From Methanobacteriota archaeon (GTDB lineage: Archaea; Thermoplasmatota; E2; DHVEG-1): 64,000 nucleotides of DNA. The position numbers and the translations under genes were made by a program. The notes below the pieces were generated by a model, which saw only the letters and a list, made by a program, of their open reading frames with translations, was not told the origin of the DNA and ran no database searches. Where the stretch lies: the NCBI GenBank assembly GCA_026394495.1, contig JAPKYE010000023.1, positions 296-64,295 on the forward strand, in the 5' to 3' direction. Numbering within the stretch: position 1 is the first letter of the stretch; the number at the start of each line of letters is the position of its first letter. Positions 35,510-44,659 of the stretch are shown here, one piece after another.

Positions 35510-36274
35510 TTATACTTCTTTTATGTTCACCACAATACCTGTCTCTGTAAAATCAAATGTATGAGTAAGACCATCGATTTTTGTTTTCCGCAGTTTCTTC
35601 ACCTGAATTGTCCGGTTCAATTCATTGCCAACATCAATATATCCAAGAACAACAAGTCCATCTGCCCTAAACTCACTGATCATATCTATTGTGTCCCCTG
35701 GCATTCCTTCAATCTTCTGCGACAACAACATAGAGGTCGCACCAGACTGCTTCACTATATCAATAAGTGCCACAAGGTTTGCTTTGTTGATCTCGGTAAA
35801 CGCCTGTGGATGAAGACCGCTTCGTAAACCATCCATGATACTAGATGGATTCATCGTTGCAATAGCGAGCGATGAAATACTATCAATCACCACTCGCTTA
35901 TACGAGCCGCCCTGAATCAACTGTTTGAGCTCATTCATTTTCGATATCTCAAACAACTCCTGAGAAGACAACCCGATAATACGCAGTTTTCCCTCTTGCT
36001 CTAATTTAACGATGTCCCATCCAAACTGACTAGCCTGTTCAACAATCTCAAGTTTAACCTGCTCACTACTCAGATAAAGCCCTTTCTCATTGCATTCCAA
36101 GGCACCTTTGATGATATACTCAAGCGCCAAAATAGATTTACCACTCCCGGGAGTCCCCGTAACCAATGTAACACTACCCTTAGGGAGACCCTGTTGAATC
36201 AATTCATCAAAACCTTCGATACATGTCGGAATCCGCTCTATCTTATTTTCCTCAGCCACCATCATCTCTACCAT
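35510..36274 (-). CDS. KaiC-like / RecA-superfamily ATPase, single domain
   Basis: Walker A GTPGSGKS, Walker B VVIDSIS; 254 aa. Confidence 0.75.
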   Translation of the reverse strand: MVEMMVAEENKIERIPTCIEGFDELIQQGLPKGSVTLVTGTPGSGKSILALEYIIKGALECNEKGLYLSSEQVKLEIVEQASQFGWDIVKLEQEGKLRIIGLSSQELFEISKMNELKQLIQGGSYKRVVIDSISSLAIATMNPSSIMDGLRSGLHPQAFTEINKANLVALIDIVKQSGATSMLLSQKIEGMPGDTIDMISEFRADGLVVLGYIDVGNELNRTIQVKKLRKTKIDGLTHTFDFTETGIVVNIKEV

Positions 36275-36831
36275 GCAACAAAGAAACGTATTACCAAATT
36301 TAAAGCAATGTGTCTTCGGTTAAGGATTTTCCAGGGGATGAAAGATCCGTTTATCATTTGATGTTCAATGGGCGAAAAAAACATTTTTTGAAAGGAGTTG
36401 AAGCATTTCCAAATATATTTTTTTCTTTCAATCCATTTGTTGTTAAAACGAACAAAAATCAGCATTTTTTGCTCAAAATCGTCTTAACCGGTGACCAATG
36501 AATTTAAAGCTAACCATCTACGCTGTCATAAGAATTACTGTTGATATTTTGTAAATGATTCCATAAATATTTGCTTTGTTTAGACCGTGGTTAAATAAAA
36601 TAAATTTACCATAAAAATAAACTTTACTGTATAAACCACAATAATGTGATAAAAAAGTATTATTCTAAGGAGAAAACATCCTTTTCATCACCTTAGTCAA
36701 TATTATGTTTTTTATCCCAAAAACAAGCATAAAATAACCCCTCTATTTCCTATGGAGAAACATAAGGAATACAAAGCTTTAAACACGTTCTCCCTATTCG
36801 TTTCATCATTCATTTTTCATGAGCGATATTT

Positions 36832-39800
36832 ATGGGTGGAGACGCAATCGAACCTCTCGCAGCAAGCAAAAACATGCAGGAATACTTCACCCAATTACAA
36901 AAAGAAATCGACATCTGCTACACCGTTGCTCAGAACGCACGAAAAAAAGGATTCGACCCAGAATACAGTGTAGAAATCCCACAAGCACTCGACCTCGCAG
37001 CACGAGTCGAACAACTCGTCGGACCCAAAGACATCGCACCAAAAATACGACAAGCAACAAAAAAAATCGGCAACCGAGAACTCGTCTCACTTGAAATCGC
37101 AAGAGAAATCGCAAAAGGAACAACCTACAAATTCTCAAGTGTTGAAAAAGCACTCGACCAAGCAACCAGAACAGGACTAGCCATCCTCACCGAAGGAGTC
37201 CTTGTCGCACCACTCGAAGGAATCGCAGAAGTAAAACTAGGGAAAAACAAAGACGGAACAACCTACGTCGACCTCTACTTCTCAGGACCAATAAGAAGCG
37301 CAGGAGGAACCGGCCAAGCAATGAGCGTCCTCATCGCAGATATCGTTCGCCGAGAACTTGGAGTCGGCAAATACCAAGCAACAGTAGGAGAAATCGAACG
37401 ATACAAAGAAGAAATACCACTCTACAAACGAGTCCAACACCTCCAATACGTCCCAAACGCCGAAGAAATCGAACGCGTCGTCAGCAACTGCCCGGTCTGC
37501 GTCAACGGAGAAGGAACCGAAGACGAAGAAGTCACAGGCTACCGAGACCTCCCAAGAGTAGGAACCAACAAACTCAGAGGAGGAGCCTGTCTAGTCATCG
37601 CAGAAGGACTCTGCCTCAAAGCACCAAAGATCTATAAACATGTGAAAAAACTCAAACTCGACGGATGGGATTTTTTAGAGAAATTCGTAAACAAAGGAAC
37701 AGAAACCACCCAACTCACAAACGGCATCCCACAAATACCGCCATCCTACAAATACATCGGAGAAGTCATTGCAGGTCGACCAGTGCTTTCACATCCCTCA
37801 ACAAAAGGAGGATTCAGACTCAGATACGGCCGCGCACGCACCGCAGGACTCGCATCAACCGCAATAAGCCCAGCAACCATGTACATCCTCGACAGCTTCA
37901 TCACCATCGGAACACAGATGAAAATCGAACGACCCGGAAAAGGAACCATCGGGACATCCTGCGACCAGATAGAAGGACCAATCGTCCTATTACAAAACAA
38001 CGACCTCGTCCAAATAAACAAAGTAGAAGACATCCACCAAGAAGTCAGCAAAATCACGGACGTAGGCGAAATCCTTATTCCCTTCGGCGAATTCATGGAA
38101 AACAACGCACTCCTCCCCGATGCAAGCTACGTATACGAATGGTGGGTCCAGGACCTTGAAAAAGCACTCAATTGTGTATCAAAAACCCAGACACAAAAAG
38201 ATATTACGGATGCAGATCAGATCGTATCAGACAAAATCAAAAAAGATTTCAAACAAGAAATCAACCTAGAAAACCCCTCAGCACAAGAGGCTTTCGCACT
38301 CTCAGAACGATACCTAATACCACTTCATCCACGATATACACTTTTCTGGCATGACATCAGCGTTGATGATGCGTGTCAACTCTCTAAGTATGTAAAAGAA
38401 AATGGAAAAATAATAACTGATGAACACAAAGAATATACGCTTTCAATCCCAAATAACCCACAGATAAAAAACATCCTCATCGAACTAGGGGCACTCCATA
38501 AACAACGCGAAGGAAACATCATCTTTGATCAATATGCATACCCTCTGATTCGCTGCTGCGGACTAGATGATTCTGACGGAAAACTCATTGACGTCCGCAC
38601 AGCGCACCTTAAAAAACAACCAGATGACAAACAAGATACAGTTACGCTAGTCTCAAAACTCGCAGGAGTAATTCTCTGCGCCCGAGCACCATTTCGCATC
38701 GGCGCACGCATGGGAAGACCAGAAAAAGCAGCAGCACGAAAAATGAGACCACCACCACACGTCCTCTTCCCACTAGGAAACTATGGGGGAAACCAACGAC
38801 TCTTCAAAACCGCAGCAGAAAAAGAAACCATCGAAGTCGAAGCAGGACACAGAAAATGCCCAAAATGCAACAAAACAACACACAAAATCACCTGCAACTG
38901 CGGAGCACATACGGAAATAGCAAACGGTCGAATTATAACCCACAACATCAACATCAGCGAAGAACTACAGCATGCAAAAAACACACTCAAAGAACACGAC
39001 CTCCCAGAAACCATCAAAGGAGTCGTAGGGACTATTTCAAAAAATAAAACCCCTGAGCCTCTTGAGAAAGGAATATTACGTGCGAAACACCAAGTATACG
39101 TGTTCAAAGATGGAACCATCAGATTTGACATGACCGATGCACCACTCACCCATTTCAAACCAAAAGAACTAGGAATCTCAGTGAAACGAGTACGAGAACT
39201 TGGATACACCAAAGACTACTTGGGAAACGAGCTAGAAACAGAAGATCAAATCTGCGAACTTTATGTCCAGGATGTGATCATCGCAAAATCCTGCGCAGAA
39301 TACTTTACCCAGGTATCAAAATTCATCGATGACCTCCTCACAAAATTCTACAAACTAGACAAATTCTACAAAATCAAAAAAATAGAGGATCTCACTGGGC
39401 ATCTTGTCGTCGGACTCGCACCACACACCTCAGCAGGCGCACTTGGAAGGATTATAGGATTCACTGATGCACAGGTATGCTTCTCTCATCCTTTTTATCA
39501 TGCCGCGAAAAGGAGAAATTGTTTTCATTTTGATCATCGCATCTTTCTTTACGATCAGAATAATGATAAATTTATTACAGACAAAATCGGTGAAGTAGTA
39601 GAGAAACAACTAAAAAATAGAAAACCACAAGTTATCGACACATATGGCACTATACGAATAAATCTTGACCCATCCGATAATATCTATGCGTATAGTTTAA
39701 ACAGAGAATCGGGAAAACTTGAAAAGAAAAAAGTAAAATATTTCATAAAAGGAAAAACAAGTCAATGGATAAAAATTAAAACATCAACTAATCGAGAAAT

Positions 39801-41802
39801 AACCGTTACGCCAGATCATAACATATTAACTATTCATGAAGGTAATCTTTTAGTTAAAAAAGCTAAAAATATTAAAGAAGGAGATCGGGTACCTCTTAGC
39901 TTAAAAAATCCTTATGAAACAACGGTATCGGAAATCAATATCCCAAAAATCCTTTCAGAGTTAAGTGACGATATTTTAATCAATATAAAACTTAGAAACT
40001 CCAAAGATTTTTTCAAAAATCTGGTAAAGAAATTGGGCAGAAATAATGTTATCAAAATATGTGATATACGGGGCTCTTCAGTCCCTTATTTAAGCAAATG
40101 GTATAAAAGTGTCCCCCTCCTACATTTTAAAAAACTCTGTGAAAACTCGCATGTTTGTTATGATGATTTACCAAAAAACACTGCTATTGGTATGAGACGA
40201 GACCACGTTAATATTCCGACATATATAACTGATATTCAATCACTTTTTTGGATCCTTGGAATTTATTGTGCAGAAGGATGGTCCCGATCTAATTTCGCCT
40301 GTAATCAGGTGGCATTTAGGATAGAGAACGCCGAATTAAGAAAAAGATTACACATAAACATGAAAAATGTGTTTGGATTAATCCCCTATCGAAATGAAGG
40401 AAGGATGATTTATTCTTCAAAAACATTGTTTTTACTTTTCAATAAAATCTGGGCTGCAGGATCGTCTGCGTATAAAAAACAAGTCCCTGAAATTATCTAT
40501 CGCGGCGATGAAAAATCAATAATTAATTTTTTATCTGCTTTTTTTGATGGCGATGGTTCCATCAGTTTGGACCCAGATAGAATCACATTCTATTCCGTTT
40601 CTCAAAAAATGATGGAAGGAATAGCAAATCTGTTATTGAGAATAAATATTTTTACTCGATATCAAAAAACAAAAAAGAGGCTTCCTGGGAAAACTGTTCT
40701 AAAGATATATGAAAAATTAGGAAAAGAACCATCTCGTCATCAGTTGTTCCATTTGGTGTTGGTTGGAGAAGATAAATATCGATTTGCGGAAATTATTAAA
40801 CCCGTTTCATATAAAAAGAAAAATCGATCATTAAAAATGGTAGAACAGCAACCCGATGAAACCTCCAGATTCATTCGTTATAAAGGGATTAATTATCCAG
40901 CAGTTGCGTTTTCTGATTATACTTTTGATATAATCAAAGAAATAAAGATCAAAGACGCAAAAGAGGCTCCTACATATTGCCTTGATGTAGAAGGCAGTAA
41001 AGCCGAAGATAAGGCAATACTTTGGCATAATCAACTTATACAGATAAGATGCGATGGCGATGAGGACGGGCAGATGCTTTTACTCGATGCATTATTGAAT
41101 TTCTCCCATGCTTACATCCCAGACAAACGAGGTGGACGGATGGATTTACCATTGATTCTTACAACACGTCTAGATCCAGCAGAAGTCGATAAAGAAGCCC
41201 ATAACATAGATACCCTTTCAAGATACCCTTTAGCGTTTTACGAAGCAACCTTAAAACACGAGCATCCGAAAAACCTTGAATCCATCATGGGATTGGTTTC
41301 ATCAAGGATTGGGACCCCATTGCAGTATGAACAGTTTGGTTTTACTCATGACACCAACCATATCTGTACTGGGCCGAAAGAATCCCTATATAAAACACTG
41401 AAAACCATGATGGAAAAGATGAATGTGCAGCTATCACTTGCCGCAAAGATACGTGCCGTAGACGAAGCAGATGTAGCATACAAGGTGATCGAGCAGCATT
41501 TCCTACCTGATATCATGGGTAATCTTCGCGCATTCAGCAAACAGTCGGTACGCTGCCCAGCCTGCAATGTGACGTATCGCCGTATCCCGTTGCAAGGAGT
41601 GTGTTCGAAATGTCAGGGGAAACTTACGCTTACCGTCCATGAGATGTCCGTAAAAAAATATTTGAATATCTCAAAAGAGATCGCAGAACGATACCATCTC
41701 CCCGAGTACGCGTGTCAACGGATTAAACTAGTGGAGAAATCCATTGATTCGTTGTTTATGAGCGACCATATGAAAGTCACGAAACTGTCTGATTTTTTCT
41801 GA
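36832..41802 (+). CDS. polC: DNA polymerase II (PolD) large subunit DP2, intein-containing
   Basis: N-terminal EYFTQLQKEIDICYTVAQNARKKGFDP. The catalytic motif HAAKRRN // CDGDEDGQMLLLDALLNF is interrupted by an about 504-aa insertion. C-terminal zinc fingers. Extein about 1150 aa. Confidence 0.9.
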   Translation: MGGDAIEPLAASKNMQEYFTQLQKEIDICYTVAQNARKKGFDPEYSVEIPQALDLAARVEQLVGPKDIAPKIRQATKKIGNRELVSLEIAREIAKGTTYKFSSVEKALDQATRTGLAILTEGVLVAPLEGIAEVKLGKNKDGTTYVDLYFSGPIRSAGGTGQAMSVLIADIVRRELGVGKYQATVGEIERYKEEIPLYKRVQHLQYVPNAEEIERVVSNCPVCVNGEGTEDEEVTGYRDLPRVGTNKLRGGACLVIAEGLCLKAPKIYKHVKKLKLDGWDFLEKFVNKGTETTQLTNGIPQIPPSYKYIGEVIAGRPVLSHPSTKGGFRLRYGRARTAGLASTAISPATMYILDSFITIGTQMKIERPGKGTIGTSCDQIEGPIVLLQNNDLVQINKVEDIHQEVSKITDVGEILIPFGEFMENNALLPDASYVYEWWVQDLEKALNCVSKTQTQKDITDADQIVSDKIKKDFKQEINLENPSAQEAFALSERYLIPLHPRYTLFWHDISVDDACQLSKYVKENGKIITDEHKEYTLSIPNNPQIKNILIELGALHKQREGNIIFDQYAYPLIRCCGLDDSDGKLIDVRTAHLKKQPDDKQDTVTLVSKLAGVILCARAPFRIGARMGRPEKAAARKMRPPPHVLFPLGNYGGNQRLFKTAAEKETIEVEAGHRKCPKCNKTTHKITCNCGAHTEIANGRIITHNINISEELQHAKNTLKEHDLPETIKGVVGTISKNKTPEPLEKGILRAKHQVYVFKDGTIRFDMTDAPLTHFKPKELGISVKRVRELGYTKDYLGNELETEDQICELYVQDVIIAKSCAEYFTQVSKFIDDLLTKFYKLDKFYKIKKIEDLTGHLVVGLAPHTSAGALGRIIGFTDAQVCFSHPFYHAAKRRNCFHFDHRIFLYDQNNDKFITDKIGEVVEKQLKNRKPQVIDTYGTIRINLDPSDNIYAYSLNRESGKLEKKKVKYFIKGKTSQWIKIKTSTNREITVTPDHNILTIHEGNLLVKKAKNIKEGDRVPLSLKNPYETTVSEINIPKILSELSDDILINIKLRNSKDFFKNLVKKLGRNNVIKICDIRGSSVPYLSKWYKSVPLLHFKKLCENSHVCYDDLPKNTAIGMRRDHVNIPTYITDIQSLFWILGIYCAEGWSRSNFACNQVAFRIENAELRKRLHINMKNVFGLIPYRNEGRMIYSSKTLFLLFNKIWAAGSSAYKKQVPEIIYRGDEKSIINFLSAFFDGDGSISLDPDRITFYSVSQKMMEGIANLLLRINIFTRYQKTKKRLPGKTVLKIYEKLGKEPSRHQLFHLVLVGEDKYRFAEIIKPVSYKKKNRSLKMVEQQPDETSRFIRYKGINYPAVAFSDYTFDIIKEIKIKDAKEAPTYCLDVEGSKAEDKAILWHNQLIQIRCDGDEDGQMLLLDALLNFSHAYIPDKRGGRMDLPLILTTRLDPAEVDKEAHNIDTLSRYPLAFYEATLKHEHPKNLESIMGLVSSRIGTPLQYEQFGFTHDTNHICTGPKESLYKTLKTMMEKMNVQLSLAAKIRAVDEADVAYKVIEQHFLPDIMGNLRAFSKQSVRCPACNVTYRRIPLQGVCSKCQGKLTLTVHEMSVKKYLNISKEIAERYHLPEYACQRIKLVEKSIDSLFMSDHMKVTKLSDFF
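39520..41031 (+). mobile_element. intein with LAGLIDADG homing-endonuclease domain in DP2
   Basis: Block A CFHFDHRIF; block B TPDHNILT; LAGLIDADG-like motifs FWILGIYCAEGW and FLSAFFDGDGSIS; block F/G TYCLDVEG...KAILWHN. The C-terminal boundary is uncertain: six residues QLIQIR lie between HN and the CDGDED extein motif. Confidence 0.7.
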
Positions 41803-41865: not shown

Positions 41866-42147
41866 ATGGCAGAGGGTTGGTTCCAACAAATGGATAAGCA
41901 AAAATTTATTAAAATATCGTTTTACATCAATATCATTTTATTTATTGTTATCGCGATCTCTGTTGTTTTCATCATCCTTGATTCCTATAATGCAGGGAAA
42001 CTCTCAGCTTTAAATCCAAGTGGAGATCAAATGTTTCAACAAGGCATTTATCTCGCTCGTGATATCGCGTTTTTCTGTGTTGCTGTCGCATTGATTTTCT
42101 TTCAGTTCTTCAGAAACTTACGACTCATCATCCAACGATCATGGTAA
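41866..42147 (+). CDS. small membrane protein
   Basis: 93 aa, two TM helices. Confidence 0.35.
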   Translation: MAEGWFQQMDKQKFIKISFYINIILFIVIAISVVFIILDSYNAGKLSALNPSGDQMFQQGIYLARDIAFFCVAVALIFFQFFRNLRLIIQRSW

Positions 42148-42156
42148 AATATTCCC

Positions 42157-42169
42157 TATAAAAAAAAAT
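42157..42169 (+). promoter_or_regulatory. TATA box (CTATAAAAAAAAA) for the downstream structured RNA
   Basis: Lies about 15-25 bp upstream of where the GC-rich RNA region begins. Confidence 0.3.
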
Positions 42170-42171
42170 GG

Positions 42172-42503
42172 CGAAAGGTGTAGAATAGACCGGGGAGTTA
42201 GGCGTTCCCTGCAACCAGAAATCGCCGATACGCTGGGGTCGAAACCAAGAGGCAATGTAACGATCATCTCTTGATCCATCTATTGACTATGACACCTTGT
42301 CCTTTGGGATTAGAGGTGATGACTGCAGATAATCGGAGGATTATCTGCGCATCTTCACTGTGGAGACCGGGTGAGGCACGGAAGTGAGCAACCTTACCAC
42401 AGACTACCGATGCTCAGAGGGTTAACGGGGTTGAGAATATAGGTGGGTAGTCAACTGTGTGACACGTGCGTTCACTTACGGTATTTCTACGCCCGCTAAC
42501 ATT
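42172..42503 (+). ncRNA. ffs: signal recognition particle (7S/SRP) RNA candidate
   Basis: A 330-nt stretch at about 50% GC in an AT-rich genome. Perfect 9-bp hairpin with GGAG tetraloop at 42323-42349 (helix 6-like). CACGGAAGUG hairpin with GGAA tetraloop flanked by AGG/AGCA at 42370-42395, matching the helix-8 SRP54-binding consensus xAGG-stem-GGAA-stem-AGCA. Distal complementary segments TTGACTA/TAGTCAA fit helix 5. Confidence 0.5.
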
Positions 42504-42535
42504 TAAAAGAGAGTACATCATCAGGGTACTACTTC

Positions 42536-44659
42536 ATGGGGGCAGAGCATATGCAAAAATTACTGAAAGATGAGAGTCTCGTAGCATCCTGGCGGAATTT
42601 CTTTGAGGAAAACTGCAAATCCGATATTGAAACAGTTGCAGGGGGATACCCGGAAAAACGCAGCCTTGTCGTTGATTATGATCTTATTGATAAAATAGAG
42701 CCGAAACTTGCGGAGATGCTCCTCGTTCAACCCTATAAGGGTCTGCATAATGCAAAAGAGGCTCTCAAACAGATTGATACTGCTTCTGAGAACAAACTTG
42801 ATCTTCATTTCCGCATAAAAAACCTTCCTGAGAATCAGAAGATAATCATTCGAAAAATCCGCGCTAGTCATATGGGAAAACTCGTGGCTATTGAAGGTCT
42901 TGTGAAGAAAACAACTGAGGTGCGCCCCAAACTTCTTGTTGCAGCGTTTCAATGTCAGAAATGCGGTGCAGTCATCCGCATTGAACAAGATGAAGACATA
43001 CTTAAGGAACCAACTGAATGTTACGAGGATCAAAGTGGCTGCGGACGTGTGTCTTCCTTTAAACTATCTACAGTACATTCCGAGTTCATTGATTCCCAAA
43101 AACTTGAAGTTCAAGAGAACCCAGAAGGGCTGCGTGGTGGTGCTCAACCAGAGCGCATCAGCGTGTATCTAGAAGATGATCTTGTTGGTGAGATAACACC
43201 CGGGGACCGTGTCGTTGTCAATGGTGTGTTGCATTCGATGCCACGGCGACGAGGCACGTTTCGGTTAACTTCATTTGATAAAGCCATGCAGGCGGTCAGC
43301 ATAGAGAATCAGCAGTTCGCGTTCGAAGAAGTTGAGATCAGTCCTGAAGATGAAAAACAGATCTTGAAAATGAGTAAAGACCCTGAGATTTATGAGAAAA
43401 TAAGGATGAGTATCGCGCCGACGATCTACGGGATGGAAATAGAAAAAGATGCGCTTGCGCTGCAACTGTTTGGCGGAATCATGAAAGAAATGCCAGATGG
43501 TACACATACTCGAGGTGATATCCACGCTATTTTTGTTGGTGACCCAGGTACGGCTAAATCACAGCTTCTCTCCTACATGTCCAAGCTTGCACCAAGAAGT
43601 GTATACGTATCCGGGAAATCATCTTCAGCTGCAGGTCTTACCGCGGCCGCTGTTCGAGACGAATTTGGTGAAGGACAATGGACACTTGAAGCAGGTGCGC
43701 TTGTATTAGCGGATATGGGGATCGCCTGCGTCGATGAGATAGATAAAATGGATGATTCTGATCGAAGTGCTTTGCATCAGGCGATGGAACAACAGGAGAT
43801 ATCTGTTGCAAAAGCAGGGATTAATGCAACCCTGAAATCCAGATGTGCGCTTCTCGCTGCAGCAAACCCAAAACTTGGACGGTTTGATGAGTTCCTACCG
43901 ATTCATGAGCAGATCAATATGCCGCCAGCATTGCTTTCTCGTTTTGATTTGATTTTCTCTATTTTAGATAAACCAAACCGAAAAAAAGATACTGAACTTG
44001 CAGCTCATATCTTGCTTTCTCATAAAGCCGGGGAGATGCATGAGAACATATCAAAATCACCGGATTCTGTGTTTTCATCTGATGAAGAATCTGTGCTGAT
44101 GGCACATGTGAAACCGGTGTTCGAACCACAGATCCTTCGAAAATATGTTGCGTATGCGAAACGTAGTGTGTTTCCTGTGATGACTGATGATGCACTTGAA
44201 ATCCTCAAGAGTTACTATGTTGAGTTCCGAAGTTCGACGGAAGGCTCAGTACCGTTTACCCCTCGTCAGCTTGAGGCGTTTGTCCGACTTGCTGAGGCGA
44301 GTGCACGGATACGATTAAGTCAGACGGTGACAATCGATGATGCGAAACGATCGATTTCAATCATTGAGCAGTATCTGCGACGGGTTGGGATGGATAGAGA
44401 AACCGGGAAATTCGATATCGATATCATTGCGACAGGGATTAGCCACAGCCAGCAAGATCGAATGAGGCTCATCATCGATATCATAAAACAACTCTGCCAG
44501 GAATCAACAGATGGAAATGCAGCACGTCCAGATATCGTCGGTGAAGCTGAAATCAAAGGAGTTGAATCAAGTAAAGTAGAAGAGGCATTAGATCGGTTAA
44601 AACGCAATGGACAGATTTACGAGCCTGCGCACGGGAAATATAAAATCACTGAGTATTGA
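42536..44659 (+). CDS. mcm: MCM replicative helicase
   Basis: Zinc finger CQKCG...C..C, Walker A GDPGTAKS, Walker B CVDEIDKM, arginine finger SRFDL; 707 aa. Confidence 0.9.
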   Translation: MGAEHMQKLLKDESLVASWRNFFEENCKSDIETVAGGYPEKRSLVVDYDLIDKIEPKLAEMLLVQPYKGLHNAKEALKQIDTASENKLDLHFRIKNLPENQKIIIRKIRASHMGKLVAIEGLVKKTTEVRPKLLVAAFQCQKCGAVIRIEQDEDILKEPTECYEDQSGCGRVSSFKLSTVHSEFIDSQKLEVQENPEGLRGGAQPERISVYLEDDLVGEITPGDRVVVNGVLHSMPRRRGTFRLTSFDKAMQAVSIENQQFAFEEVEISPEDEKQILKMSKDPEIYEKIRMSIAPTIYGMEIEKDALALQLFGGIMKEMPDGTHTRGDIHAIFVGDPGTAKSQLLSYMSKLAPRSVYVSGKSSSAAGLTAAAVRDEFGEGQWTLEAGALVLADMGIACVDEIDKMDDSDRSALHQAMEQQEISVAKAGINATLKSRCALLAAANPKLGRFDEFLPIHEQINMPPALLSRFDLIFSILDKPNRKKDTELAAHILLSHKAGEMHENISKSPDSVFSSDEESVLMAHVKPVFEPQILRKYVAYAKRSVFPVMTDDALEILKSYYVEFRSSTEGSVPFTPRQLEAFVRLAEASARIRLSQTVTIDDAKRSISIIEQYLRRVGMDRETGKFDIDIIATGISHSQQDRMRLIIDIIKQLCQESTDGNAARPDIVGEAEIKGVESSKVEEALDRLKRNGQIYEPAHGKYKITEY

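What the first reader, a model, noticed from the sequence alone, without database searches (positions are those of the whole stretch)
39520..41049. DP2 intein with an atypical C-terminal junction (HN followed by QLIQIR before the CDGDED extein motif)
The insertion splits the invariant PolD catalytic motif: KRRN, then the insert, then CDGDED. The insert carries canonical intein block A (CFHFD), block B (TPDHNILT), two LAGLIDADG-type motifs (FWILGIYCAEGW, FFDGDGSIS) and block F/G ending ...AILWHN. Six further residues (QLIQIR) precede the expected +1 Cys. If the intein ends at HN, the +1 residue is Gln, which is not a nucleophile. If it ends at ...IQIR, the terminal residue is not Asn or Gln. 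Either this is an unusual splice junction, or a small extra insertion that remains in the mature polymerase next to the active-site Asp residues. The insert is also more AT-rich than the flanking extein.
Basis: partly seen in the sequence, partly recalled or inferred. Interest (0 to 1): 0.6.

Follow-up and report, generated by a model that had tools for sequence, protein, structure and literature searches.

The report
DNA polymerase intein ending in arginine
The self-splicing insert (intein) in this archaeon's replicative DNA polymerase D gene ends in arginine. All described inteins end in asparagine, glutamine, aspartate or glutamate, so this one probably finishes splicing by chemistry nobody has described.

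Summary
The 510-codon insert at 39520-41049 is real. It splits the PolD DP2 catalytic motif exactly as described (KRRN | insert | CDGDED). It is a full-size LAGLIDADG intein at the long-known DP2 intein site.

In 118 aligned homologues and a confident AlphaFold model, W-H-N is the turn before the last beta-strand, and only 31 of 58 clade members have "HN" there. QLIQI is that last strand, and the intein ends at Arg510, directly before Cys+1. Thirty-three intein-free DP2 alleles of the same class carry no QLIQIR-like residues.

The real oddity is the terminal Arg, which cannot cyclise the way Asn, Gln or Asp do. It is not an error:
- Arg-ending inteins form one clade (57 Arg plus 1 Gln here, 68 Arg with further representatives).
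- Five different Arg codons encode it.
- Cys1, block B Thr and His, and Cys+1 are invariant in the clade.
- dN/dS is about 0.1.
- The clade has moved repeatedly between hosts.
- Mini-intein derivatives keep the Arg.

I conclude that this is a working, mobile intein with an undescribed C-terminal cleavage step. Splicing itself is untested.

This scan has reported Arg-ending PolD inteins in three other genomes. I found no paper describing them.

The parts
36832..41802 (+). PolD large subunit (DP2) precursor gene, 1656 codons plus stop. It is the only DP2 in the 93%-complete genome.
36832..39519 (+). N-extein, ending ...HAAKRRN (first half of the acidic catalytic motif)
   Evidence: motif function from PMC7708050
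39520..41049 (+). Intein of 510 residues: a HINT splicing domain with a nested LAGLIDADG endonuclease domain
39520..39522 (+). Cys1 (block A nucleophile), 58/58 in the Arg clade
39808..39819 (+). Block B T-P-D-H (Thr97 and His100). Both are 58/58 in the Arg clade.
40246..40281 (+). LAGLIDADG motif 1 (FWILGIYCAEGW) with catalytic Glu252
40540..40566 (+). LAGLIDADG motif 2 (FFDGDGSIS) with catalytic Asp345
40975..40995 (+). Start of block F, YCLDVEG. Asp489 aligns with the conserved block F Asp. Cys487 is invariant in the clade.
41023..41031 (+). W-H-N, the turn between the last two beta-strands. It aligns with the 'xNN/xND' turn of canonical inteins and is not block G.
41032..41049 (+). QLIQIR, the last beta-strand of the HINT fold, ending in the C-terminal Arg510 (codon AGA, 41047-41049) at the position of Asn/Gln
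41050..41802 (+). C-extein, starting with Cys+1 of CDGDED (catalytic Asp residues)

Best explanation
This is a genuine, evolutionarily maintained and mobile LAGLIDADG intein at the classical DP2 site between Asn and Cys of KRRN|CDGDED. It belongs to a large clade whose C-terminal residue is Arg instead of Asn, Gln or Asp.

Likely mechanism, all of it inferred:
- Steps 1 and 2 are the ordinary class 1 reactions: an N-S acyl shift at Cys1, helped by block B Thr97 and His100, then transfer of the N-extein to Cys+1.
- Step 3 frees the intein's C-terminus and cannot use succinimide formation.
- My preferred candidate for step 3 is attack of the Arg N-epsilon on its own backbone carbonyl. This would give a six-membered lactam. 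The ring size and the position of the nitrogen match glutarimide formation by the Gln that related DP2 inteins use.
- The alternative is an N-S acyl shift at the Arg-Cys+1 bond followed by thioester hydrolysis.

Shown here: the boundaries, the fold, conservation of Arg and of the other catalytic residues, purifying selection, and mobility. Not shown: splicing itself and the step 3 chemistry.
For: - Boundaries. MAFFT of 118 DP2 proteins puts Arg510 in the column of the terminal Asn/Gln and puts WHN in the block F turn. In the AlphaFold2 model (pLDDT 91.8, pTM 0.91; 94 over the last ten intein residues) LIQI is the final strand. Foldseek's best hits are intein endonucleases PI-PkoII, TliVMA and PI-PfuI.
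- One clade. Arg-enders form one clade with SH-aLRT 99, made of 57 Arg and 1 Gln; the tree was built without the last 12 residues.
- Selection on the amino acid. Arg is encoded by AGA, CGA, CGT, CGG and CGC in different members. The single Gln is CAA next to a CGT sister.
- Other catalytic residues in the clade: Cys1 58/58, Thr97 58/58, His100 58/58, Asp/Glu489 57/58, Cys+1 58/58.
- Purifying selection. dN/dS is 0.06-0.15 for both the HINT and the endonuclease parts. Endonuclease residues Glu252, Asp345 and Lys320 are kept.
- Mobility. The extein tree needs at least 14-18 switches between Arg-type and Asn/Gln-type inteins. In the pair L031/L014, intein dS is 1.1-1.3 against extein dS of 0.15-0.41.
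- Mini-inteins of 176-242 aa in three Arg subclades still end in Arg.
- The +1 residue. Intein-free DP2 alleles of the same class have Cys 17, Ala 15, Ser 1 at +1, and C963A barely affects PolD activity (PMC7708050). Yet every intein-bearing allele in alignment A1 keeps Cys+1, which argues that the transesterification step is in use.
- The genome has only one DP2 gene.
Against: - No experiment shows splicing of any Arg-ending intein.
- Guanidinium is a very poor nucleophile at neutral pH.
- No described intein ends in Arg. The review PMC4031507 lists only Asn, Gln, Asp and Glu.
- I could not inspect model coordinates, so I do not know what surrounds the Arg side chain.
- All hosts are uncultured, and most come from metagenome assemblies.
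- dS is near saturation for several pairs.
- The extein tree was made with FastTree, and it flagged long branches.
Confidence: 0.7

Rival explanations
1. The Arg-ending insert no longer splices. It stays in DP2 as a tolerated or domesticated inserted domain, or the polymerase is inactive and another polymerase replicates the genome.
For: Arg cannot form a succinimide or glutarimide. No published intein ends in Arg. The termini of a HINT domain lie next to each other, so an insert in a loop is geometrically possible.
Against: The insert sits between Asn and the two catalytic Asp residues of the acidic motif. Cys1, block B Thr and His, and Cys+1 are invariant although Cys+1 is dispensable for the polymerase. 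The clade has spread horizontally into many hosts, and a non-splicing insert in a single-copy essential gene should not. Mini-intein derivatives keep all splicing residues.
Confidence: 0.13
2. One reading: the intein ends at His-Asn (41029-41031). Either Gln is the +1 residue, or QLIQIR stays in the mature polymerase as a small extra insertion.
For: The literal string ILWHN resembles a block G ending. By spacing alone, 12 residues after VEG, it fits a canonical block F/G (my own first count).
Against: His-Asn occurs at that spot in only 31 of 58 clade members; the others read GN, NN, SN or GE. The column aligns with the block F turn of canonical inteins. QLIQI is the modelled final strand. None of 33 intein-free alleles has extra residues before C/A/S-DGDED. 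Gln is not a nucleophile.
Confidence: 0.02
3. Splicing is completed with outside help or only conditionally. For example, a host protease or a small-molecule thiol might resolve the branched intermediate, with Arg serving as a recognition or regulatory residue.
For: DP2 inteins of Pyrococcus and Methanoculleus are known for slow, redox- or temperature-controlled splicing (PMC4031507). Cys487 is invariant in the clade.
Against: The hosts span very different archaeal groups: records are named Thermoplasmata, Micrarchaeota and MSBL1. A shared helper is therefore unlikely. Inteins are otherwise autocatalytic.
Confidence: 0.1
4. Sequencing or assembly artefact: an indel or frameshift near 41030-41050 creates the odd ending.
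For: None.
Against: The same ending and the same intein length (about 510 residues) occur in dozens of independent assemblies down to 33% identity, with synonymous Arg codons.
Confidence: 0.01

Closest known systems
Pyrococcus abyssi, P. horikoshii and Methanoculleus marisnigri PolII (DP2) inteins (PDB 2LCJ, 5BKH, 7OEC)
   Same: They use the same insertion site, between Asn and Cys of KRRN|CDGDED, with Cys1 and Cys+1 and no penultimate His. The HINT domains match by sequence (E 1e-7 to 1e-3) and by fold. The Pab and Mma inteins already depart from Asn by using Gln, and they splice slowly (PMC4031507).
   Different: Those are mini-inteins ending in Gln or Asn, both of which can cyclise. This one is full-size with an endonuclease and ends in Ile-Arg.
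Inteins with atypical C-terminal Gln or Asp (Chilo iridescent virus RNR, Carboxydothermus RIR1; Amitai et al. 2004, cited in PMC4031507)
   Same: They are also non-Asn inteins that still splice. Asn, Gln, Asp and Arg endings all occur among DP2 inteins at this one site.
   Different: Gln and Asp carry a carbonyl-bearing side chain that cyclises onto the backbone. Arg carries a guanidinium group, for which no such reaction is described in proteins.
PI-PkoII, PI-PfuI, TliVMA and PI-SceI intein homing endonucleases (PDB 2CW7, 1DQ3, 7QSS, 1VDE)
   Same: The overall architecture is the same: a HINT domain interrupted by a two-motif LAGLIDADG endonuclease. The best Foldseek hit is 2CW7, E 1.9e-29, TM 0.65.
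   Different: Sequence identity is only 10-17%, the host genes differ, and all of them end in Asn.
Canonical Asn-ending DP2 inteins in genomes of the same taxonomic family (G004, G005, G010, G011, G014)
   Same: Same site, same host family, and full-size LAGLIDADG inteins.
   Different: They share only 25-30% identity with the window's intein and end ...SNN|C. They carry the block F His-Asn-Phe motif, which the Arg clade replaces with Lys/Arg-x-Val.

Membership tests
Intein (class 1 protein-splicing element) | In-frame insertion in a conserved host protein whose removal restores the conserved motif | tested here: met
   Removing residues 897-1406 gives KRRN-CDGDED. Intein-free alleles read KRRN[C/A/S]DGDED.
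Intein (class 1 protein-splicing element) | HINT fold with the N- and C-terminal strands adjacent | tested here: met
   AlphaFold2 pLDDT 91.8. Foldseek hits to intein structures at E 1e-29 to 1e-8. Pfam Intein_splicing scores 55 bits against a cut-off of 35.8.
Intein (class 1 protein-splicing element) | N-terminal nucleophile (Cys, Ser or Thr at position 1) | tested here: met
   Cys1 is present in all 118 aligned homologues.
Intein (class 1 protein-splicing element) | Block B TxxH | tested here: met
   T-P-D-H is present. Thr97 and His100 are 58/58 in the clade.
Intein (class 1 protein-splicing element) | C-terminal cyclising residue (Asn; rarely Gln, Asp or Glu) | tested here: not met
   The terminal residue is Arg, 57 of 58 in the clade, and it aligns with Asn/Gln of the relatives.
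Intein (class 1 protein-splicing element) | Nucleophile at +1 of the C-extein | tested here: met
   Cys+1 is 58/58 in the clade, although Ala is common at this position in intein-free alleles.
Intein (class 1 protein-splicing element) | Autocatalytic excision and extein ligation | not testable with these tools
   This needs expression and mass spectrometry. It is inferred only from conservation, mobility and the single-copy essential host gene.
LAGLIDADG homing endonuclease (two-motif, intein-nested) | Two LAGLIDADG motifs that keep the catalytic acidic residues | tested here: met
   Glu252 and Asp345 are present. In the clade they are E/D 52/58 and D/E 53/58, and Lys320 is 58/58. Pfam LAGLIDADG_3 scores 45 bits.
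LAGLIDADG homing endonuclease (two-motif, intein-nested) | Site-specific cleavage of the intein-free allele (homing) | not testable with these tools
   Indirect support only: the intein and extein trees disagree, and intein dS far exceeds extein dS in one pair.
Class 3 intein (WCT motif, block F Cys nucleophile) | Cys at block F position 4 replacing the conserved Asp, usually without an N-terminal nucleophile | tested here: not met
   The invariant Cys487 lies two residues before the block F Asp column. Asp489 occupies that column and Cys1 is present.

The most novel reading that the evidence does not exclude
Arg-ending DP2 inteins splice by a C-terminal cleavage chemistry not known in any protein. 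One candidate is cyclisation of arginine through N-epsilon to a six-membered lactam. The other is an N-S acyl shift at the Arg-Cys+1 bond followed by thioester hydrolysis. Either would define a new mechanistic class of inteins and a new self-cleaving module for protein engineering.
Probability: 0.5. Interest if true: 0.85.

Novelty: new variant of a known kind. Interest (0 to 1): 0.75.

Why it matters
Cyclisation of a terminal Asn (or Gln, Asp) is treated as the universal third step of protein splicing. Mutating that residue is the standard way to block C-terminal cleavage.

A large, conserved and mobile clade of inteins with Arg at that position sits in the catalytic loop of an essential polymerase. 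This implies one of two things. Either there is an unrecognised way to break the intein/C-extein bond, or polymerases can tolerate a 59-kDa insert in their active site. Both would surprise specialists.

The question is directly testable with the 176-193-residue Arg-ending mini-inteins found here. A new cleavage chemistry would also be useful for protein engineering.

Tried and rejected
- **Block G by spacing.** I first counted residues after VEG. ILWHN fits a canonical block G by spacing alone. I rejected this after the alignment, the per-column statistics and the structure model.
- **Class 3 intein.** I considered a block F Cys nucleophile because of YCLDVE. The alignment puts Asp489, not Cys487, in the block F Asp column, and Cys1 is present.
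- **Shifted boundaries.** An intein running from Phe2 to Cys+1, or starting at Asn-1, gives no known nucleophile arrangement.
- **Other cyclising residues.** Cyclisation of Asn504 or Gln508 would cut the wrong bond and leave residues on the C-extein.
- **Related loci.** Scans of genome and metagenome contigs with the intein gave only 3 and 4 close loci.
- **DNA of the nearest relative.** DNA for P0002 (95% identical) was not held, so dN/dS had to use relatives at 73-78% identity, where dS is near saturation.
- **Structure prediction.** The 118-row alignment was too large and I reduced it to 44 rows.
- **Literature.** Six full-text searches found no paper on Arg-ending inteins. This covers only the held library.

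Full report
**What is in the sequence**

The ORF 36832..41802 on the + strand encodes a 1656-residue protein. Pfam assigns it the N-terminal, central and catalytic domains of the PolD large subunit DP2. The catalytic domain is split into two pieces around an Intein_splicing hit and a LAGLIDADG_3 hit.

The junctions read KRRN|CFHFD... and ...AILWHNQLIQIR|CDGDED.

GC is 0.29-0.36 inside the insert and 0.42-0.50 in the flanking exteins. The genome (2.2 Mb, 93% complete) holds only this one DP2 gene. The gene lies between a KaiC-like ATPase gene on the other strand and an intein-free MCM helicase gene.

The site itself is well known. Zatopek et al. 2020 (PMC7708050) state that about half of PolD-encoding archaea carry an intein between this Asn and Cys. 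They also show that the two following Asp residues are essential for catalysis.

**Where the intein ends**

A protein search returned 563 hits, and I examined the best 120. All complete ones carry an insert at the same site.

In a MAFFT alignment of 118 of them, the window's last residue, Arg, falls in the column of the terminal Asn or Gln of the other inteins. The W-H-N tripeptide aligns with the 'xNN/xND' turn that precedes the last strand in canonical DP2 inteins (...HNFPINNFIVSNN|C).

Within the window's own clade that turn reads HN in only 31 of 58 members. The others have GN, NN, SN or GE.

An AlphaFold2 model built on a 44-row alignment is confident: mean pLDDT 91.8, pTM 0.91, and 94 over the last ten intein residues. 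It shows AILW and LIQI as the last two strands, with HNQ as the turn between them. Foldseek's best PDB matches are intein homing endonucleases: PI-PkoII at E 1.9e-29, then TliVMA, PI-PfuI and PI-SceI. The Pab and Pho PolII mini-inteins match the HINT part.

Finally, 33 intein-free DP2 alleles from genomes of the same class read KRRN followed directly by C/A/S-DGDED, with no QLIQIR-like residues. So the hexapeptide belongs to the intein, 'HN' is a coincidence, and the intein ends Ile-Arg.

**The terminal Arg is a conserved character, not an accident**

- Of the 118 aligned inteins, 57 end in Arg, 47 in Asn and 14 in Gln.
- On an IQ-TREE tree built without the last 12 residues, the Arg-enders form one clade with SH-aLRT 99. 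It contains 57 Arg and a single Gln (P0069).
- Path lengths inside the clade exceed one substitution per site, and identity to the window falls to about 31%.
- In members whose DNA I could fetch, the Arg is encoded by AGA (window), CGA, CGT, CGG and CGC. The one Gln is CAA beside a CGT sister. Selection therefore acts on the amino acid.
- An exhaustive phmmer search of 1.84 billion cluster representatives added more Arg-enders, giving 68 in all. They include mini-inteins of 176, 187, 193 and 242 residues that fall in three different Arg subclades. The endonuclease was therefore lost several times while the Arg was kept.
- The same search shows DP2 inteins ending in Asp, and one Asn-ender (P0125) whose sequence features suggest it sits inside an Arg subclade.

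**Signs that these inteins work**

- Catalytic residues: in the Arg clade, Cys1, block B Thr97 and His100, and Cys+1 are 58/58. The block F Asp column is Asp/Glu in 57/58.
- Selection: dN/dS is 0.06-0.15 for both the HINT part and the endonuclease part. This includes pairs where dS is not saturated, such as L031/L013 (dS 0.8-0.9, ratio about 0.1).
- Endonuclease: catalytic Glu252, Asp345 and Lys320 are retained.
- Mobility: the Arg type is one clade on the intein tree. On a tree of the exteins it needs at least 14-18 switches against the Asn/Gln types, and the window's nearest extein relatives include hosts of Asn-type inteins.
- Same-family genomes carry Asn-type inteins (25-30% identical) at the same site, or no intein at all.
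- In one pair (L031/L014) the exteins differ by dS 0.15-0.41 but the inteins by dS 1.1-1.3. The extein flanks held for L014 are short.
- The +1 residue: among intein-free alleles of this class the +1 position is Cys 17, Ala 15, Ser 1, and C963A has minimal effect on PolD activity. Yet all 58 Arg-type alleles keep Cys. That makes sense only if the intein needs the +1 nucleophile, which means it goes through the branched intermediate. These counts are descriptive, because related genomes are not independent.

**How it probably works**

Steps 1 and 2 are likely the ordinary class 1 reactions, since all their residues are present. Step 3 cannot be succinimide formation.

The review by Mills, Johnson and Perler (PMC4031507) lists only Asn, Gln, Asp and Glu as C-terminal residues. 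It notes that Gln-ending PolII inteins splice slowly.

My preferred candidate is attack of the Arg N-epsilon on its own carbonyl to form a six-membered lactam. This rests on chemistry, not on any test here:
- Arg N-epsilon occupies the same side-chain position as Gln N-epsilon-2, and the ring size equals that of glutarimide.
- Delta-lactam formation is the classical side reaction of carboxyl-activated arginine in peptide synthesis.
- Arg and Gln interchange by one base within the clade.
- The site as a whole switches freely between Asn and Gln.

The main alternative is an N-S acyl shift at the Arg-Cys+1 bond, which would free the Cys+1 amine, followed by hydrolysis of the resulting thioester. 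In that route Arg would act electrostatically.

Several features travel with the Arg and may belong to the changed active site:
- a bulky Ile/Leu/Val as penultimate residue, where relatives have Gly, Ala, Ser or Asn;
- Lys or Arg where canonical relatives have the block F His-Asn-Phe;
- Trp or Leu at position 502;
- Gln at positions 505 and 508.

I could not inspect the model's coordinates to test any of this.

**Comparison with what is known, and novelty**

The element is an intein by site, fold, Cys1, block B and Cys+1. It fails one defining feature, the cyclising C-terminal residue.

Its closest studied relatives are the Pab, Pho and Mma PolII inteins at the same site. These are mini-inteins ending in Gln or Asn.

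Six full-text searches found no description of Arg-ending inteins, but the library is not complete.

Earlier notes of this scan report Arg-ending PolD inteins in three other genomes (e1-1915361, e1-2453859, e1-1223089). I reached the same reading independently on this window. I add the codon evidence, the Arg/Gln sister pair, the disagreement between the intein and extein trees, the +1 Ala alleles, and the repeated origin of mini-inteins. I class the finding as a new variant of a known kind.

**Limits**

- Nothing here shows splicing.
- All hosts are uncultured. Names on related records are Thermoplasmata or Thermoplasmatota, Micrarchaeota, MSBL1 and 'Euryarchaeota UBA33'.
- Some dS values are saturated.
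- The extein tree is a FastTree tree that flagged long branches.

Noticed in passing
L026, L029, L030, L040-L042, L044, L045, L047, L048, L051, L052, L055, L056, L058 (intein-free DP2 genes of the same class): Fifteen of 33 intein-free DP2 alleles read KRRN-ADGDED, with Ala instead of Cys at the intein +1 position, and one has Ser. All 118 intein-bearing alleles in alignment A1 keep Cys; two later representatives (P0238, P0254) read SDGDED. The Ala alleles may be immune to intein invasion, since they lack a +1 nucleophile and have an altered homing site. C963A is reported to have minimal effect on PolD.
   Followed up: partly
L031 versus L014 (DP2 genes with Arg-type inteins): The exteins are 96% identical (dS 0.15-0.41), but the inteins are only 79-85% identical (dS 1.1-1.3). 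This looks like replacement of one Arg-type intein by another between close hosts. The L014 flanks are short (79 and 120 codons).
   Followed up: partly
P0241, P0245 (DP2 proteins from the representatives search): These DP2 inteins at the same site end in ...TID|CDGDE, a C-terminal Asp. Asn, Gln, Asp and Arg endings therefore all occur at this one insertion site.
   Followed up: no
P0125 (DP2, 1202 aa): This Asn-ending intein (...LILSSN|CDGDEA) has an N-terminal HINT half and exteins that look like one Arg subclade, and a starred 18-row group in the HINT tree holds 16 Arg, 1 Gln and 1 Asn. It may be a reversion, or a recombinant with a canonical C-terminal half.
   Followed up: no
window 35510-36832 and 41866-44659: DP2 is not preceded by DP1 here. 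Upstream there is a KaiC-like ATPase gene on the minus strand and a 558-bp AT-rich spacer. In relatives (L020-L023, L031) DP1 lies directly upstream. Downstream are a 93-aa ORF with no family and an intein-free MCM helicase gene.
   Followed up: partly
G000:C38:886-1362 (own genome, another contig): A second LAGLIDADG/intein-like match (E 5.8e-12, in a 672-aa open frame) suggests another intein in a different gene of this genome.
   Followed up: no
L014 (JAPLGF010000181.1) and P0047: Contigs carrying archaeal DP2 with Arg-type inteins are filed under bacterial bins (Atribacteria, Petrotogales). They are probably mis-binned archaeal contigs.
   Followed up: no
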